Source: a virus (Duplodnaviria; Caudoviricetes). Taken from it: a DNA stretch of 64,000 nt. Positions 9,473 to 19,743 of this stretch are shown here, piece by piece. The notes below the pieces were generated by a model. That model saw only the letters and a program-made list of their open reading frames with translations, was not told the origin of the DNA and made no database searches. The position numbers were made by a program, and so were the translations under genes. Location of the stretch: positions 128,001 to 192,000 of the IMG/VR virus record IMGVR_UViG_3300035390_000014; one strand, 5' to 3'. How positions within the stretch are numbered: position 1 is the first letter of the stretch; the number at the start of each line of letters is the position of its first letter.

Positions 9473-9610
9473 TTATAAAAGGTTAAGAACGGAAAGATTA
9501 TACATAAAATAACTCAGGTGGTAGAGTATTTGCCTCAAAAGCAAACTGTCGTTGGTTCAATTCCAACTTTTAACAAAACCTAATCTTTTATATTACTTAA
9601 CCTTTTATAA
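9473..9610 (+). ncRNA. Scaffold RNA Y1 (Y-RNA-like): tRNA-like cargo in D-anticodon-T order, anticodon CAA, acceptor end fused to scaffold
   Basis: 15-bp outer stem ttataaaaggttaag/cttaaccttttataa, AACG/ATATTA loop, inner stem gaaagatta/taatctttt; arms actc/gagt, tttgc-ctCAAaa-gcaaa, gttgg-ttcaatt-ccaac. Confidence 0.85.
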
Positions 9611-9622
9611 GATACAAATTTA

Positions 9623-9761
9623 AATGAGAGAACGAAAAATGATTACAGATTATTACTATGATTAAGTAAAGGTCGCAGGTTCGAGTCCTGTCATAAGGGA
9701 AACTTTATGTAACTCAGTTGGTAGAGATTATATCAACAATCATTTTTATATTACTCTCATT
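9623..9761 (+). ncRNA. Scaffold RNA Y2: permuted cargo (anticodon-T-acceptor-D), acceptor capped by GAAA tetraloop
   Basis: aatgagag/ctctcatt, AACG/ATATTA, aaaaatgatt/aatcattttt; ttact-atGATta-agtaa, gcagg-ttcgagt-cctgt, cataagg-GAAA-ctttatg, D arm actc-agttggta-gag. Confidence 0.88.
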
Positions 9762-9768
9762 ACATTTT

Positions 9769-9863
9769 TGTAGATCGCCGGTGGGTGACTATGCACCTTG
9801 GAAAACATAACTTTAGATGACTGGTAATTATCCGGTATATATCTAATTTCCCGGGGATCTACA
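9769..9863 (+). ncRNA. Unassigned structured RNA inside the array
   Basis: Terminal stem tgtagatc/gatctaca plus ccgg/ccgg; hairpins ggtg/cacc, ttagat/atctaa, actgg/ccggt. Confidence 0.55.
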
Positions 9864-9872
9864 ATACAATTT

Positions 9873-10002
9873 GCCCTCATTGAGAGCGTTTCTACCAAGG
9901 AGCCATAATGTTGAATCTAGATAGATGTTATGGAAATTGATTAGAGCGAGAGGTATTCTCATTGGTCTTAGGATCAGATAGGTTCGAGTCCTATTGGGGG
10001 CT
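9873..10002 (+). ncRNA. tRNA-like RNA whose D arm is replaced by a roughly 80-nt extended hairpin
   Basis: Acceptor gccctca/tgggggc, T arm atagg-ttcgagt-cctat, nested stems tgagag/ttctca, cgtttcta/tagagcg, ccataa/ttatgg; hairpin with loop CTTAGG; no CCA. Confidence 0.65.
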
Positions 10003-10011
10003 GAATAATTT

Positions 10012-10161
10012 TAATGGAAGAACGGAAAATAATTACAGTAGTCCATTAGGAGGACGTGTTTGGAGGTTCGAATCCTTCTTTCCCCACCACACATTTATGG
10101 GGAAATAGGCAAACTGGTACAGCCGCGTAATACAACAATTATTTTTAAATTACTTCCATTA
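10012..10161 (+). ncRNA. Scaffold RNA Y3: permuted tRNA-Leu(UAG)-like cargo with A73-CCA in the acceptor linker
   Basis: taatggaag/cttccatta, AACG/AAATTA, gaaaataatt/aattattttt; gtcc-atTAGga-ggac, ggagg-ttcgaat-ccttc, tttcccc-A-CCA-cacatttat-ggggaaa, D arm ggc-aaactggtaca-gcc. Confidence 0.88.
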
Positions 10162-10240
10162 CTTTTTTATGCCGGGTGATACGTATGTTTATCCATACGC
10201 CGGCTCCATTATTATAATAATAAAAAACAGGGAGATTAGG

Positions 10241-10717
10241 ATGAAAATGAAAACAAGTTTAATTTATGGTTTAATTTTGGTAATGGTTTCTATGTTAGCA
10301 ATTTCATGTAGTCAAAGGAAATTGGTAACAACTCCTGTTTTTAAAATGACTATTGCTGAAGTAAAAGTTGCAGCTCCTGAACCTGCAACAGTAACTGATA
10401 TCAGAGAAAGCATAATGTTTAAATATGATAGCTCTGTTATTGAAGAAATTGAAATGAAAAAGGTTGAAGAAATTGCTGGAGTAATGGCACTTTATTCTGA
10501 TACAGACCTAGTCCTTAAAGGTTATGCAAGTTCAGAAGGTACAACCGAATATAATACTGAACTTTCTTTAGCAAGGGCTGAAGTTGTAAAAGCTGAATTA
10601 CTAAGCCTGGGTGTTTCAGAAGATCGCATTCTTATACTAGGTCATGGAGCAACCAATGAATTTGGTGAGCTTCTAGATTTAAACAGAAGAGTCCTTGTTT
10701 TAAGCATGGATGAATAA
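10241..10717 (+). CDS. OmpA-family peptidoglycan-binding lipoprotein (start moved from 10169)
   Basis: Signal peptide with lipobox LAISC; IMFKYDSS, LKGYASSEG..EYN.ELS.ARA, GHG, LNRRV; RBS before 10241. Confidence 0.85.
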   Translation: MKMKTSLIYGLILVMVSMLAISCSQRKLVTTPVFKMTIAEVKVAAPEPATVTDIRESIMFKYDSSVIEEIEMKKVEEIAGVMALYSDTDLVLKGYASSEGTTEYNTELSLARAEVVKAELLSLGVSEDRILILGHGATNEFGELLDLNRRVLVLSMDE

Positions 10718-10725
10718 CAATATTT

Positions 10726-10810
10726 AAGTCAGAACGAAAAGAGATTACAGTAAAAATTAATGCTTCCAAACAGCAATACAATACAACAATTTCTTTTGAA
10801 TTACTGACTT
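10726..10810 (+). ncRNA. Scaffold RNA Y4: minimal form carrying one anticodon-like hairpin
   Basis: aagtcag/ctgactt, AACG/GAATTA, aaaagagatt/aatttctttt, cargo tgct-tccaaac-agca. Confidence 0.85.
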
Positions 10811-10824
10811 TACATTTTTAAACT

Positions 10825-11090
10825 ATATGAGGTTTGTCGTTTTGAAATATGAAACGAATACTTTAATCAGGATTTGTATTTTGCTATTTTATTGCCCTGG
10901 ATAATACCGGCCCCCAATGGGACTGCCTGGTTACTGGGCCTGCATAACCCACGCGCGTGGTTGGCACTTTAGATCCTGAAAAAGTAAAAAATAGCTGAAA
11001 ACGTGGAGACTATCCACTACTAGATTTGACAACCTAGAAACTAGTACACAGTAAGCTGAGATTGTCAGTCTTAGAATCTGTGCCTCATAT
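10825..11090 (+). ncRNA. Unassigned structured RNA of about 265 nt
   Basis: 8-bp closing stem atatgagg/cctcatat; GC-rich interior with hairpins ccacgc/gcgtgg, gtgga/tccac, tactag/ctagta; no ORF in the track. Confidence 0.5.
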
Positions 11091-11102
11091 TACAATTTTT
11101 AG

Positions 11103-11249
11103 AGAGTTAGAACGAAAAAATATTCCAGATATACAATATAGGTTCAATCCCTATTTTGGGCTCCAAGCATGCCCATGCTGACAATTGGCTGTCAACTTGT
11201 CTTAAACAACAGGTGTAATAAATAAAATATTTTTTAAATTACTAACTCT
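11103..11249 (+). ncRNA. Scaffold RNA Y5: permuted cargo (T-acceptor-D-anticodon) with U73-CCA in the linker
   Basis: agagttag/ctaactct, AACG/AAATTA, aaaaaatatt/aatatttttt; atagg-ttcaatc-cctat, tttgggc-T-CCA-agcat-gcccatg, tgac/gtca, acttgt-cttaaaca-acaggt. Confidence 0.85.
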
Positions 11250-11256
11250 TTTATTT

Positions 11257-11301
11257 AAAATATTCGTCATAACCTTAACCAGTTATGACGAATATTTTTT
11301 T
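11257..11301 (+). terminator. 17-bp hairpin plus T-tract between RNA array and vWA gene
   Basis: aaaatattcgtcataac / gttatgacgaatatttt followed by further Ts. Confidence 0.7.
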
Positions 11302-11350
11302 GCCGACAATAGGAACGAATCATTTTAAACGTGAAAAGGAGAAAATCCGA

Positions 11351-12958
11351 ATGGTTAATTTACCTGTTCGAATTGAAGAAAAATTTGTTAACGCAAATTT
11401 AAGAAAAATTGGGCAAGACATTGAAACAACTATGTCTTTATTTGGCACTGATATGAACAGAGCTACACATTATAACACCAAAGAAGAGTTAGCAGCTATG
11501 AGCGAAAAAGAACATAGAAATATGTTTTCTATTGATCGTTCAATCTATGGCTGTATTGCTTGTCTACCTGGTACAACTGATATTTCTAAAATGAAAGTTG
11601 TTACCAATCTTTTAGGTATCTCATGGGAGCATGGATCTGATTTTCAAGTCACTACTCCTATTCTTACAATAGAACAGGAAAGATTAATCATTGATCATCT
11701 GGTATCAACACTTCCTCCAAATAGAATGATAAATTTGTTTGCTTCTTTTGAGGATAGTCGAGTTAACAATACCCGTATGAGAAAAACAGTTCTTCCTTTT
11801 ATTCTTAACTCAGGTAGTCTTGGGTGGTGGGCAGTTAAGTATAGAAGTAAATTGAAAACTGTATTATCTCATTGTTGGGGTAAAAAGATGACAAGTGTTA
11901 TTGTTTCTATCATTGGGAAAAGAGCAAAGACCCAAAAAGAAAATGATATCCTTGATTCCTTTATTGGTAAGTATATTGTTATCGTTGAGAAGACTAAACG
12001 TAAGGCTATATTTGAATGTCTACGTTTTATCTTTTCTGTTGGTGATAATTTTACCAACCATCTTTTTGTAAATTTCCATGCTTCAAAAACTGATTTCTCA
12101 AAAGCAAAAGGTTTGCCAAAAGAAGTAATTGAAGGTATAAGAGCGGCTTATCACCCAACTCTGGATAAAGCTGAAACCTTAAAAGTTGCTGAGTCGTCAA
12201 TGACTAACAAGGAAAAACGTTTGGTCCAAAACCAGGCTGTTAAAACTGGAGTTAAAATTGAATGGGACCCTAAGACACAACCATTGGTCGAACTCTTTAT
12301 ATACGGGTTTAAAATGGGGTTCACCAATGCAATACATGATGCTATTCTACAAAAATCTGATAGAGCTGGTCAAGCATTGCCATTTACCTATGATAAAGTT
12401 GGGATCATTTGTGACGATAGTTTTTCAATGAGTGGTTCTGAAGATCAGAAACTGAAAGCATTGGCTATAAGTTATGCTACAGTTGAAACATTGAAAGGTG
12501 TTGGTTCTACGACTCTGGTGGCATCTACTTCTGGTAGACGTCCATCATATACCAATAGTCCAATGGGTGAATCAAATCTGGCAAAACCTTTACTTAAATT
12601 GTTAAAGAGAGATGTAGATGTTATCTTTGTTGTATCTGATGGTTATGAAAATGCACCAGAAGGTAGATTTGGAGAAGTGTTGAAAATTGCCAGGGATAAA
12701 GCTGGAGTAACAACCCCAGTATATCATTTTAATCCAGTTGGAGCTGCTGAAAGTAAAGTTGCTGTAAAAAGATTATCTAATGATGTTCCGGTGACTCCGG
12801 TGACTAATCCAGAGAAAATGGGTCTTTCATTATTTAAGACAATGATAGCAGCTGATCCAAAACAAGGGATTGTTAGATTGTTTAACATGGTTCTTCCAGA
12901 ATTGGAAAAGACTAAACTATTATACTCTCGGGTTAACCTAGAAGCTATAAGCGAATAA
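11351..12958 (+). CDS. Helical N-terminal region plus C-terminal vWA domain; Ro60/TROVE-like (inferred); start moved from 11285
   Basis: MIDAS motif DDSFSMSGS, VFVVSDGYEN, VYHFNPV; long predicted-helical N-terminal part; AAGGAG before ATG 11351; vWA solid, TROVE relationship inferred. Confidence 0.6.
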   Translation: MVNLPVRIEEKFVNANLRKIGQDIETTMSLFGTDMNRATHYNTKEELAAMSEKEHRNMFSIDRSIYGCIACLPGTTDISKMKVVTNLLGISWEHGSDFQVTTPILTIEQERLIIDHLVSTLPPNRMINLFASFEDSRVNNTRMRKTVLPFILNSGSLGWWAVKYRSKLKTVLSHCWGKKMTSVIVSIIGKRAKTQKENDILDSFIGKYIVIVEKTKRKAIFECLRFIFSVGDNFTNHLFVNFHASKTDFSKAKGLPKEVIEGIRAAYHPTLDKAETLKVAESSMTNKEKRLVQNQAVKTGVKIEWDPKTQPLVELFIYGFKMGFTNAIHDAILQKSDRAGQALPFTYDKVGIICDDSFSMSGSEDQKLKALAISYATVETLKGVGSTTLVASTSGRRPSYTNSPMGESNLAKPLLKLLKRDVDVIFVVSDGYENAPEGRFGEVLKIARDKAGVTTPVYHFNPVGAAESKVAVKRLSNDVPVTPVTNPEKMGLSLFKTMIAADPKQGIVRLFNMVLPELEKTKLLYSRVNLEAISE

Positions 12959-12968
12959 GGAGAATAAA

Positions 12969-13994
12969 ATGGAAATTACAATTGCAGAAGTGTTGAAAGG
13001 ATGTACTCCTGGTCGTATGCAAAGCGCTGGGTATATGCAGATGGTTCCATTACTATCTGAACCTGATATGATTGATAAAAGATTTGGAGCATTTACTGGA
13101 ATACTATCAAGTACCCATGATTATGGAACAGTTCATTTAGAAAATAAAGAAGACTTTCCAACAATCATGCCCATGGGAACTGCTATTTTAACTACACAAA
13201 GTGCTCAGAATCATGCTCTTGGTAAAGTTAAATTAATGACCAGAATGTCCGAATCAAATATTGATACAGCAGCTTGTATCCAGGATACTCAGGGTGGGAT
13301 CATTAGAAGCGGTGTTCATAGTTTATCAATCCTCCCATATTCAATTCGTGAGAAAGCGTTGGAAATAAAGGATAAGAGAGGTTATAGTAAACTATGGCCT
13401 GCTATCAAAGTATTTAATGAGGAAGTTGGGATTGAAGAAGGTAACTACCGTTCCATGGGTCATCTTGAACATTACCTGGAAACATTTGGTGATAAGCTTG
13501 ACGAGTTCATTGGTCAGTTTGAAATTGTTCCAAATCAAGTCGGAGCAATTATTTTGTTAAATGGTCAAATTGCTGGTGTTGAAAGAGCACCCAATTATGA
13601 TTTCTGGAAAGAATTGTGGAAACCATTGATTCGTGAATGTTATGGTTCTGCATCTTTGGTATTTGCTAAGAAAGGTGAGAAACCTTCACCACCACTTGGA
13701 AGAATGCCGATTAATGATCACTTGGTTAAAAACATTGATGATCTTGAAACTGAATATAATAAGGCTGAAAAACATGAAGAAGATACTGTAAAGAATCTTA
13801 TTCGGAATTTTATTCAGCAACCATTTACTGCCACTCGGGAAGAAAATGAACCCAATGGTACTATTTGTGTGGATCATCTTAGTGGTGGTCAATTCACTGG
13901 ACAGATTGTTAGAGACAGCGCATTTGTTGTTTATGCCAGTCTGGTTCCAGATAAGAATGCTCGATTTAATACAGCAGCAGCATTTACAATTTAA
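12969..13994 (+). CDS. ARPP-like (ARG/Rhodanese-Phosphatase-associated) protein, tightly linked to the vWA gene
   Basis: GRMQSAGYMQMVPL, HDYGTV.LEN, QNHAL, AACIQDTQGG, QVGAIILLNGQIAGVERAP recalled from vWA-associated bacterial proteins; 10 nt after upstream stop. Confidence 0.5.
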   Translation: MEITIAEVLKGCTPGRMQSAGYMQMVPLLSEPDMIDKRFGAFTGILSSTHDYGTVHLENKEDFPTIMPMGTAILTTQSAQNHALGKVKLMTRMSESNIDTAACIQDTQGGIIRSGVHSLSILPYSIREKALEIKDKRGYSKLWPAIKVFNEEVGIEEGNYRSMGHLEHYLETFGDKLDEFIGQFEIVPNQVGAIILLNGQIAGVERAPNYDFWKELWKPLIRECYGSASLVFAKKGEKPSPPLGRMPINDHLVKNIDDLETEYNKAEKHEEDTVKNLIRNFIQQPFTATREENEPNGTICVDHLSGGQFTGQIVRDSAFVVYASLVPDKNARFNTAAAFTI

Positions 13995-14436: not shown

Positions 14437-14512
14437 GGTCCCATAGCTCAGTGTGTAGAGCATCTGGCTTACATCCAGAATGTCCCTAGTTCAAATCTAG
14501 GTGGGATCACCA
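14437..14512 (+). tRNA. trnV: tRNA-Val(TAC)
   Basis: ggtccca/tgggatc, loop CTTACAT, A73, CCA; begins right after the promoter motif. Confidence 0.92.
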
Positions 14513-14533
14513 AAACCAATAAGGAAAAATGAA

Positions 14534-14974
14534 ATGATTGAATCTAAACTAGTGAAAATTAAGAAATTACATAAAGATGCTATTATACCAAAATATCAAA
14601 CAATAGGTTCTGCTGGATTTGATTTAAGTTCTATTATTGATTGTAAACTTTTTCCAAATCAACAAGAGTTAATCCCAACAGGACTTTCCGTTGAAATCCC
14701 ATTAGGGACTGAATTACAAATTAGACCTAGAAGTGGACTTGCTAAAAATTCTATGATATCAATAACTAATTCACCAGGTACATTAGATTCAGACTATAGA
14801 GGTCCTATAGGAATCATTCTTATAAATCATAGTCCTTTTGTTTTTGAAATAAAGAAAGGTGATAGAGTAGCTCAAGCAGTATTATGTCCAGTGTATCAAG
14901 CTAACTTTGAAGTTGTTGATGAACTCTCAAACACAGACCGTGGAGAAAACGGTTATGGAAGCACTGGTAAATAA
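14534..14974 (+). CDS. dut: dUTPase (trimeric); start moved from 14501, which lies inside tRNA-Val
   Basis: SAGFDL, IPTG, QIRPRSGLA, PGTLDSDYRG, GDRVAQ, RGENGYGSTG motifs. Confidence 0.95.
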   Translation: MIESKLVKIKKLHKDAIIPKYQTIGSAGFDLSSIIDCKLFPNQQELIPTGLSVEIPLGTELQIRPRSGLAKNSMISITNSPGTLDSDYRGPIGIILINHSPFVFEIKKGDRVAQAVLCPVYQANFEVVDELSNTDRGENGYGSTGK

Positions 14975-19667: not shown

Positions 19668-19743
19668 GCCGGTGTAGCTTATTGGGAGAGCCGAGAACTC
19701 TAAATTCTTGATTGAGTAAGTTCGATCCTTACCATCGGCACCA
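19668..19743 (+). tRNA. Amber suppressor tRNA, anticodon CTA
   Basis: gccggtg/catcggc, A73, CCA, D arm gctt/gagc, gagaa-ctCTAaa-ttctt (anticodon 19700-19702), T arm gtaag-ttcgatc-cttac. Confidence 0.88.

What the first reader, a model, noticed from the sequence alone, without database searches (positions are those of the whole stretch)
9473..11249. Five Y-RNA-like scaffold RNAs sharing a new conserved protein-binding motif
Seen: elements at 9473, 9623, 10012, 10726 and 11103 share one architecture: outer stem ending in G, 5'-AACG opposite (A/G)(A/U)AUUA-3' closed by a G-C pair, a 9-10 bp A/U-rich inner stem, then ACAG/CCAG-like and ACAAC-like linkers around a variable cargo. Stem sequences differ between copies yet stay complementary (aatgagag/ctctcatt, aagtcag/ctgactt, agagttag/ctaactct; aaaaatgatt/aatcattttt, aaaagagatt/aatttctttt), which is covariation around an invariant loop. 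Established: Y RNAs pair a Ro60-binding terminal stem with an effector module, and bacterial YrlA uses a tRNA-like effector. The canonical Ro60 bulged-C motif is not present here. Inference: a previously undescribed Y-like family bound by the neighbouring vWA protein, delivering interchangeable tRNA-mimic cargos.
Basis: partly seen in the sequence, partly recalled or inferred. Interest (0 to 1): 0.95.

Follow-up and report, generated by a model that had tools for sequence, protein, structure and literature searches.

The report
Phage Ro60-like protein's tRNA-mimic RNAs
Five small RNAs in a giant phage share one conserved two-helix "handle" but carry different tRNA look-alikes; they sit just upstream of a very diverged Ro60-type ring protein and its enzyme-like partner, and look like an undescribed branch of the known Ro60/Y-RNA particle.

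Summary
Five elements (9473-9610, 9623-9761, 10012-10161, 10726-10810, 11103-11249, + strand) share an outer stem, a 5' AACG loop, a 9-10 bp inner stem, an ACAG linker, a variable cargo, the returning inner stem, an (A/G)(A/U)AUUA loop and the returning outer stem. They are the only such elements in the 203-kb phage record.

The stems covary while the loops stay fixed. A covariance model finds 124 copies, all on the gene's strand and almost all upstream of homologs of 11351-12958, in 3-6-copy arrays.

That "vWA protein" has a Ro60 fold (best match a Thermus phage Ro60, Z 17.2), although Pfam, PHROGs and sequence profiles miss it. An ARPP-like gene follows it in 129 of 145 loci, and a complex model places that protein on the vWA metal-binding face.

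Two cargos have YrlA topology (Rfam YrlA 35.8 and 17.3 bits, cut-off 69). One is a standard-order tRNA look-alike that is miscalled tRNA-Leu.

So this is a Ro60/Y-RNA system of a new, diverged lineage, not a new class. Its loop resembles the YrlA loop. RNA-protein binding and expression remain untested. This scan has already noted the same three-part module on other DNA.

The parts
9473..9610 (+). E1: scaffold RNA. 15-bp outer stem, AACG, 9-bp inner stem, standard-order tRNA-like cargo with a 5-bp acceptor stem, AUAUUA loop.
   Evidence: Fold z -4.2; descriptor score 14.5; R1 77.6 bits. The cargo is called tRNA by Rfam (54.2 bits) and tRNA-Leu(CAA) by ARAGORN, but the first two acceptor pairs are non-standard in the Rfam alignment, and I see no long variable arm and no free ends.
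9623..9761 (+). E2: scaffold RNA with YrlA-type cargo (V hairpin, T arm, closed acceptor-like stem, D arm).
   Evidence: Fold z -5.2; Rfam YrlA 35.8 bits, E 1.3e-5, cut-off 69; R1 89.9 bits.
10012..10161 (+). E3: scaffold RNA with YrlA-type cargo.
   Evidence: Fold; Rfam YrlA 17.3 bits and partial tRNA 20.8 bits; R1 104.4 bits.
10726..10810 (+). E4: minimal scaffold RNA. Same handle, 43-nt cargo with one small hairpin and no tRNA-like part.
   Evidence: Fold z -4.2; descriptor 14.5; R1 70.4 bits.
11103..11249 (+). E5: scaffold RNA. CCAG linker, T-arm-like hairpin and three further hairpins.
   Evidence: Fold; descriptor 15; R1 75 bits.
11259..11302 (+). Long hairpin followed by a T run between E5 and the Ro60-like gene; a likely intrinsic terminator or attenuator.
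   Evidence: Read from the sequence. Its position is conserved in L159, L161 and L163. The simple terminator scan did not call it.
11351..12958 (+). Ro60-like protein, 535 aa: helical-repeat ring plus vWA domain with an intact MIDAS motif (D355, S357, S359 invariant or nearly so).
   Evidence: AF2 pLDDT 87.7; Foldseek top 13 PDB hits all Ro60; VIA Z 17.2 over 401 residues to 9kop; invariant columns; no Pfam, PHROGs or PDB-sequence hit.
12969..13994 (+). ARPP-like protein, 341 aa; the conserved partner gene.
   Evidence: Pfam ARPP-1 at 8.6e-18 and ARPP-2 at 9.7e-9. Directly downstream of the Ro60-like gene in 77 of 80 viral and 52 of 65 genome loci. Complex model ipSAE 0.64 against best control 0.00.
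11308..11368 (+). Possible copy of the handle in the Ro60-like mRNA leader (AAUAGG-AACG-stem, RBS and AUG, stem-AAUUUA-CCUGUU). Speculative autoregulatory site.
   Evidence: Descriptor hit with mismatches. The minimum-energy fold reproduces it, but z = 0. GGAAC at about -50 is kept in L159, L161, L163 and L017. The 3' half is coding sequence.

Best explanation
The five elements are the Y RNAs of a diverged Ro60 particle encoded by a giant phage. Each RNA pairs its 5' and 3' ends into a two-helix handle. The asymmetric internal loop of the handle (5' G-AACG, 3' RWAUUA) is the docking site for the Ro60-like ring protein encoded just downstream, as the conserved stem of Y RNAs and YrlA docks on Ro60/Rsr. 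The far end of the handle carries an exchangeable effector module, mostly a tRNA look-alike. E2 and E3 have the permuted YrlA form, E1 has a standard-order tRNA body joined through a shortened acceptor stem, E4 is minimal, and E5 is mixed. The ring protein's vWA/MIDAS face holds the ARPP-like enzyme-type partner. The particle would therefore bring a tRNA-shaped RNA, or factors that recognise tRNA shape, together with Ro60's RNA-end-binding ring and the ARPP activity. This would happen inside a genome region dense in phage tRNA genes. The likely role is tRNA/RNA surveillance, repair or protection during infection. Shown here: the RNA architecture, covariation, co-occurrence with the gene pair, and the Ro60 fold. 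Supported by a model only: the Ro60-like/ARPP contact. Inferred: RNA-protein binding, transcription as discrete RNAs, and the biological role.
For: Five copies, and only five, in the 203-kb record. Stems covary around fixed loops. With the real loop the descriptor gives 83 + strand hits in 80 related phage loci, against 10-24 for scrambled loops and 4 on the - strand; 77 of the 83 end within 3.5 kb upstream of the gene. Model R1 gives 124 hits at E<=0.1, all on the + strand, in arrays of 3-6 per locus, and none in canonical YrlA loci. Yinghuangia loci have GC-rich stems with the same loops (AACUG and CGAACUG or CGACCUU) just upstream of the gene. Ro60 fold. Two distant homologs are named TROVE domain-containing by UniRef. 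Sub-threshold YrlA matches for E2 and E3. ARPP adjacency in 129 of 145 loci. Complex model: score 0.64 against best control 0.00, a mark reached by 58 of 80 solved complexes and 2 of 110 mismatched pairs (roughly, since my own alignment was used). The three runs share at least 88% of contacts and the partner's pLDDT is at least 82. The interface includes MIDAS residues 357-359 and the near-invariant 432-437. Known biology: Y RNAs bind Ro60 through the terminal stem and carry an effector module, and YrlA mimics tRNA (PMC4201824, bioRxiv 10.1101/312249). Phage phiLo Ro60 binds two upstream Y-like RNAs (PMC12135203).
Against: No experiment or RNA-seq shows that these RNAs are made or bound; only sediment DNA runs hold the stretch. 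No sequence method links the protein to Ro60, so homology rests on a predicted fold. The global Foldseek TM-score is only 0.38, although VIA aligns about 400 residues. The published YrlA motif GNCGAAN0-1G is not matched exactly, and R1 does not hit canonical YrlA loci. E1-type cargos keep a full anticodon arm, unlike YrlA. An OmpA-like gene and other structured RNAs interrupt the array, so it may not be one transcription unit.
Confidence: 0.72

Rival explanations
1. The handles are processing signals, not protein-docking sites. The elements would be precursors from which a nuclease (host RNase III or RNase P type, or the ARPP-like protein) releases the tRNA-like cargos as working tRNAs, permuted tRNAs or tRNA fragments. 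The Ro60-like protein would act only on the products.
For: E1-type cargos score as tRNA (54.2 bits; many tRNA-model hits directly upstream of the gene in relatives). The locus lies in a tRNA gene array. M. smegmatis YrlA is cleaved by RNase P (bioRxiv 10.1101/312249).
Against: In E1 the first two acceptor pairs are non-standard in the Rfam alignment, which leaves about 5 pairs, and I see no discriminator/CCA context. E1 has a Leu anticodon without the class II long arm. E4 and the Yinghuangia copies have no tRNA part, yet keep the same loops. A loop conserved on both strands across proteins only 25% identical fits a protein-binding site that co-evolves with the adjacent protein.
Confidence: 0.12
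2. The RNAs act on their own as decoys or sponges for host tRNA-targeting defence nucleases or tRNA-binding factors. The handle would only stabilise them, and linkage to the Ro60-like/ARPP pair would reflect a shared regulon rather than binding.
For: The anticodon-like loops differ between copies and loci. Jumbo phages invest heavily in tRNA replacement and RNA repair (PMC7824862).
Against: A purely stabilising stem would not need an invariant asymmetric loop kept from AT-rich phages to GC-rich Actinobacteria. The same-strand, immediately upstream position in 124 of 124 hits, next to a Ro60-fold protein, matches the known Ro60-Y RNA gene arrangement (PMC4201824, PMC12135203).
Confidence: 0.1
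3. The elements are chance or selfish repeats with no function.
For: None beyond the AT-rich context, which favours spurious hairpins.
Against: Scrambled-loop controls give 0-1 hits against 5. Compensatory changes occur in 15 of 16 pairs. The elements are conserved in about 150 loci.
Confidence: 0.01

Closest known systems
Bacterial and phage YrlA/YrlB Y RNAs with Ro60 (Rsr): Salmonella rsr-yrlBA-rtcBA, mycobacteriophages (Chen et al. 2014, PMC4201824; Rfam RF02553)
   Same: The RNA ends pair into a long stem with an asymmetric internal loop. The distal module mimics tRNA (T arm, closed acceptor-like stem, D arm in E2 and E3). A tRNA-less sibling (E4) resembles YrlB. The RNAs are encoded beside a Ro60-fold protein. 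The loops are alike: 5' GAA-Y-G and 3' AAA(C/U)U(U)R.
   Different: The best Rfam score is 35.8 bits against a cut-off of 69. The motif GNCGAAN0-1G is not matched exactly. Here both loop strands are conserved, whereas in YrlA only the 5' strand is reported conserved. Arrays hold 3-6 RNAs rather than 1-2. Many cargos are standard-order tRNA bodies with a complete anticodon arm. The protein is invisible to Pfam TROVE. The partner is ARPP rather than RtcB/RtcA.
Thermus phage phiLo Ro60 with Yrl1/Yrl2 (PMC12135203; PDB 9kop, 9l5y)
   Same: A phage-encoded Ro60 with Y-like RNAs encoded upstream of the gene. It is the best structural match of the window's protein (Z 17.2, 401 residues).
   Different: Sequence identity is about 10%. 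phiLo has two RNAs, defined by a CGAA motif in a bulge. No ARPP partner is reported, and PNPase is the effector shown there.
Deinococcus radiodurans Rsr-Yrn1-PNPase (RYPER) and metazoan Ro60-Y RNA
   Same: A ring protein plus a modular RNA that tethers an effector.
   Different: The metazoan bulged-C helix (GGUCCGA) is absent. No PNPase link is seen here. The predicted tethered enzyme sits on the vWA MIDAS face rather than on the RNA.
ARPP-containing conflict systems (Iyer et al. 2022, PMC9503650)
   Same: The downstream gene matches Pfam ARPP-1 and ARPP-2.
   Different: That paper lists ARPP with ARG/rhodanese-phosphatase, HIRAN, WYL and deacetylase partners. It does not list a Ro60/TROVE pairing.

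Membership tests
Rfam YrlA (RF02553) | Covariance-model score at or above the gathering cut-off (69 bits) | tested here: not met
   E2 35.8 bits and E3 17.3 bits; E1, E4 and E5 have no match. No YrlA match at the cut-off in 26 related loci.
Rfam YrlA (RF02553) | tRNA-like module in the order (V) - T arm - closed acceptor-like stem - D arm | tested here: met
   Met for E2 and E3 (alignment; fold). Not met for E1 (standard tRNA order), E4 (no tRNA part) or E5 (T arm only).
Rfam YrlA (RF02553) | 5' motif GNCGAAN0-1G (Chen 2014) | tested here: not met
   The copies read G-AACG-A/G (GAACGAA or GAACGGA). CGAA is present in E2, E4 and E5, but the spacing and flanking G differ. It is similar, not identical.
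Y RNA (general) | 5' and 3' ends pair into a stem that holds the Ro60 site, with a distal effector module | tested here: met
   Folds and covariation of both helices.
Y RNA (general) | Bound by Ro60 in vivo | not testable with these tools
   Only genomic linkage is available: 124 of 124 model hits on the gene's strand.
Y RNA (general) | Expressed as a discrete small RNA | not testable with these tools
   No RNA run holds the stretch. A terminator-like hairpin follows E5.
Ro60 / TROVE proteins | Pfam TROVE (PF05731) or sequence-profile similarity to solved Ro60 | tested here: not met
   0 of 60 family members hit TROVE. The profile against PDB sequences finds no Ro60. Two distant homologs carry a UniRef TROVE name.
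Ro60 / TROVE proteins | Helical-repeat ring closed by a C-terminal vWA domain with MIDAS | tested here: met
   AF2 model pLDDT 87.7. Foldseek top 13 PDB hits are Ro60. VIA Z 12-17 over about 400 residues. D355, S359 and D430 are invariant and S357 nearly so.
ARPP (PF20208 / PF22549) | Pfam score above the cut-off | tested here: met
   65.1 and 35.1 bits against a cut-off of 27.

The most novel reading that the evidence does not exclude
This is a distinct three-part ribonucleoprotein system, widespread in giant phages and some Planctomycetota, Myxococcota and Actinobacteria. It comprises a Ro60-like ring, an ARPP enzyme docked on the ring's MIDAS face, and a magazine of 3-6 handle RNAs that each present a different tRNA mimic with its own anticodon-like loop. 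The system would work as a tRNA-directed counter-defence or repair machine. The mimics would bait or sense host anticodon nucleases or tRNA-modifying toxins, or guide the particle to damaged tRNAs, and ARPP would process the damaged or modified ribose end.
Probability: 0.3. Interest if true: 0.85.

Novelty: new variant of a known kind. Interest (0 to 1): 0.7.

Why it matters
Ro60/Y-RNA particles are conserved from bacteria to humans, yet what the tRNA-like module of bacterial Y RNAs recruits is still unknown. This lineage offers several new handles on that question.

- It has a strictly coupled candidate effector (ARPP, itself of unknown activity) predicted to sit on the Ro60 MIDAS site, whose role is also unknown.
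- It has natural series of 3-6 RNAs with one constant handle and swapped tRNA-like heads. That amounts to a ready-made structure-function panel.
- Its loop motif is conserved on both strands, which makes clean binding mutants easy to design.

There is also a practical point. Current annotation misses the protein (no Pfam or PHROGs hit) and miscalls some of the RNAs as tRNA genes, which inflates phage tRNA counts.

Tried and rejected
- **Sequence links to Ro60.** Pfam and PHROGs on the 535-aa protein, Pfam on 60 homologs, and phmmer and an HMM profile against PDB sequences all found nothing. Only the fold search made the link.
- **Rfam on related loci.** At gathering thresholds, 26 related loci gave only tRNA hits and no YrlA.
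- **Annotated phages.** GenBank phages hold a single unannotated 462-kb metagenomic record with a homolog.
- **First descriptor.** My first, loose version was no better than scrambled controls and was replaced by a scored one.
- **Leader mimic (11308-11368).** The fold is no more stable than shuffles (z = 0), L161 does not fold that way, and the 3' half is coding sequence. I keep it only as a speculative note.
- **Type III toxin-antitoxin reading.** I considered an RNA repeat array, terminator and protein gene arrangement. I dropped it because the units are 85-150-nt structured RNAs with different cores and the protein has a Ro60 fold.
- **Literature.** Burroughs and Aravind 2016 and two Wolin-lab reviews are not held, so I cannot exclude that a divergent TROVE clade is mentioned there.
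Full report
**Setting.** The window is bases 128001-192000 of a 202,719-bp IMG/VR virus record, estimated at about 65% complete, so the source is a giant phage from sediment metagenomes. The first 20 kb of the window are dense in tRNA genes interleaved with small ORFs.

**The observation.**
- The five elements exist as described.
- On its own, each folds into an outer stem (6-15 bp), a 4-nt 5' loop AACG, a 9-10 bp A/U-rich inner stem, a multiloop with the cargo, the returning inner stem, a 6-nt 3' loop (A/G)(A/U)AUUA, and the returning outer stem. E1, E2 and E4 fold clearly better than shuffles (z -4.2 to -5.2); E3 and E5 do so less (z -2.4 and -2.1).
- A scored descriptor run over both strands of the whole record finds exactly these five at score >=14.5. 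Eight scrambled 4-mers in place of AACG give 0-1 hits, although they occur as often or up to four times as often.
- A covariance model built later finds the same five at 70-104 bits and nothing else above 17.4 bits in the record.
- Refined extents are 9473-9610, 9623-9761, 10012-10161, 10726-10810 and 11103-11249.

**Covariation.** I aligned 16 same-register copies: the five here plus eleven from related phages.
- 98% of stem cells form standard pairs, and 15 of 16 pairs show changes on both sides.
- AACG is invariant and ACAG is kept in 15 of 16 copies.
- The 3' loop reads A/G, A/U, A, U/C/A, U, A/G.
- None of 500 column shuffles reach the observed pairing or covariation, and slid partners pair at only 45-55%.
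- These copies were picked by a descriptor that demands pairing, so the scrambled-loop controls are the cleaner test.

**The neighbouring protein.**
- ORF 11351-12958 (535 aa, good RBS) has no Pfam, PHROGs or PDB-sequence match. Neither do 59 homologs or their profile.
- An AlphaFold2 model built on a 60-sequence alignment is confident (pLDDT 87.7, pTM 0.81).
- Foldseek's 13 best PDB hits are all Ro60.
- VIA-align gives Z 17.2 over 401 residues to Thermus phage phiLo Ro60. It gives Z 12-14 to Xenopus and human Ro60 and to Deinococcus Rsr, covering residues 22-519.
- The vWA MIDAS residues are invariant or nearly so in the family.
- Two distant homologs carry UniRef's TROVE name.
- So the "vWA protein" is a very diverged Ro60.

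**Linkage across genomes.**
- Homologs at 25-47% identity occur in 80 IMG/VR loci, many from contigs over 100 kb and several up to 436 kb.
- They also occur in 65 GTDB genome loci, mainly Planctomycetota and Myxococcota, plus the actinobacterium Yinghuangia.
- With the loop AAC(U)0-2G, the descriptor gives 83 + strand hits in the viral loci, against 10-24 for six scrambled loops and 4 on the - strand. Of the 83, 77 end within 3.5 kb upstream of the gene.
- Model R1 (built from alignment A3) gives 124 hits at E<=0.1 in 76 sources. All are on the gene's strand and nearly all are upstream. They typically form arrays of 3-6, for example L017, L020, L161, L163, L024 and L064. At least 36 of 42 viral loci searched have a hit.
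- Close relatives at 54-78% identity keep 4-5 copies in the same order.
- GC-rich Yinghuangia copies (CCGGGG-AACUG...CGAACUG-CCCCGG in L123; the 3' loop reads CGACCUU in L127) keep the loops with completely different stems.
- Planctomycete and GC-rich phage copies show variants such as ACUG, AACUUG and ACUAG.

**Relation to YrlA.**
- E2 and E3 have the V-T-AS-D layout of YrlA and match RF02553 below its cut-off: 35.8 and 17.3 bits against 69.
- The Rfam YrlA consensus has the same plan: a 6-bp stem, 5' loop AUGCu, a 7-bp stem, and 3' loop aAaAcUuG. Its loops resemble those here (5' GAA-Y-G, 3' AAA-Y-U-R).
- The published motif GNCGAAN0-1G (PMC4201824) and the CGAA motif (PMC12135203) overlap with GAACGAA but do not coincide with it.
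- Genomes carrying this module also carry sub-threshold YrlA-like RNAs elsewhere (41-51 bits). Their neighbouring genes were not checked for a canonical Rsr.
- R1 does not hit those loci. The two RNA families are therefore related in design but separate, and appear to coexist.

**Cargos.**
- E1, like many copies in relatives, carries a standard-order tRNA body with D, anticodon and T arms. It is joined through a shortened acceptor stem (in E1 the first two of the seven pairs are non-standard in the Rfam alignment) and the conserved linkers ACAG and ACAAC.
- ARAGORN and Rfam call E1's cargo tRNA-Leu(CAA). It has no class II arm and no free ends, so it is most likely a mimic.
- E4 has no tRNA part. 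E5 has a T-arm-like hairpin.
- Anticodon-like loops differ between copies and loci.

**Partner gene.**
- ORF 12969-13994 matches Pfam ARPP-1 and ARPP-2.
- An ARPP-like gene directly follows the Ro60-like gene in 77 of 80 viral and 52 of 65 genome loci.
- The ARPP paper lists no TROVE pairing (PMC9503650).
- A complex model scores 0.64 against a best control of 0.00. That mark was reached by 58 of 80 solved complexes and 2 of 110 mismatched pairs (roughly, because my own alignment was used). The three runs agree in at least 88% of contacts and the partner's pLDDT is at least 82.
- The interface covers MIDAS residues 357-359 and the near-invariant 432-437. This supports binding but does not prove it.

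**Mechanism.** The most likely reading (0.72) is a Ro60/Y-RNA particle of a new lineage. The handle loop docks on the ring, the tRNA-like head recruits or imitates tRNA-recognising factors, and ARPP is held on the vWA face. The context of tRNA arrays, and the known link of Rsr-YrlA to RNA repair operons, point to tRNA/RNA surveillance, repair or protection during infection. RNA binding, expression and role are inferred.

**Rivals.**
- Handles as processing signals that release tRNA-like products: 0.12.
- Free-standing decoys linked to the gene pair only by regulation: 0.10.
- Chance repeats: 0.01.

**Novelty.** Ro60 with tRNA-like Y RNAs in phages is known (PMC4201824, PMC7824862, PMC12135203). 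I found no description, in the papers I could search, of these features:
- this protein clade;
- its dedicated RNA family with a loop conserved on both strands;
- multi-copy arrays;
- acceptor-joined tRNA heads;
- the ARPP pairing.

Three key papers are not held. Earlier notes of this scan describe the same module on other DNA and reached the same reading. I checked the shared claims independently here.

Noticed in passing
window 9768-9865: A strongly structured closed hairpin RNA (UGUAGAUC...GAUCUACA, -35.6 kcal/mol, z -4.9) lies between E2 and E3. It has no Rfam match and no blastn match in the related loci.
   Followed up: partly
window 9883-10005: A roughly 120-nt tRNA-like RNA with a 7-bp acceptor pairing (GCCCUCA/UGGGGGC), a T arm and a large insertion. 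Neither ARAGORN nor Rfam calls it. Its middle part is conserved in L159, L161 and L162.
   Followed up: partly
window 10815-11100: A GC-rich structured RNA of about 265 nt inside the AT-rich array, between E4 and E5. Its ends are conserved in L159-L162 (80-90% identity). No Rfam match.
   Followed up: partly
window 10244-10717: An OmpA-family gene (Pfam 1.4e-14) that looks like a lipoprotein sits in the middle of the RNA array, preceded by a GC hairpin at 10171-10204. The close relative L159 lacks room for this gene between the corresponding RNAs.
   Followed up: no
window 11308-11368: The leader and start of the Ro60-like gene can fold into a weak copy of the handle that encloses the RBS and AUG. 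GGAAC about 50 nt before the start is kept in homologs down to 37% identity. This could be an autoregulatory mimic, but the evidence is weak.
   Followed up: partly
window 9503-9575: The cargo of E1 is reported as tRNA-Leu(CAA) by ARAGORN and as tRNA by Rfam. Such embedded mimics would inflate tRNA counts in giant-phage annotations. Many tRNA-model hits directly upstream of the gene in relatives may be of this kind.
   Followed up: partly
window 19668-19743: A tRNA with a CUA anticodon (amber suppressor; ARAGORN labels it Pyl). It hints at TAG recoding in part of this phage's genes.
   Followed up: no
L150-L158 (Novipirellula, Stieleria and Yinghuangia genomes): The bacterial genomes that carry the Ro60-like/ARPP module also hold sub-threshold canonical YrlA-like RNAs (41-51 bits) at other places. 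Two Ro60-type systems seem to coexist.
   Followed up: partly
window 14501-14974, and L159/L161/L163: dUTPase and a cold-shock-domain gene follow the module in the same order in close relatives. A tRNA-Val gene sits between ARPP and dUTPase in the window.
   Followed up: no
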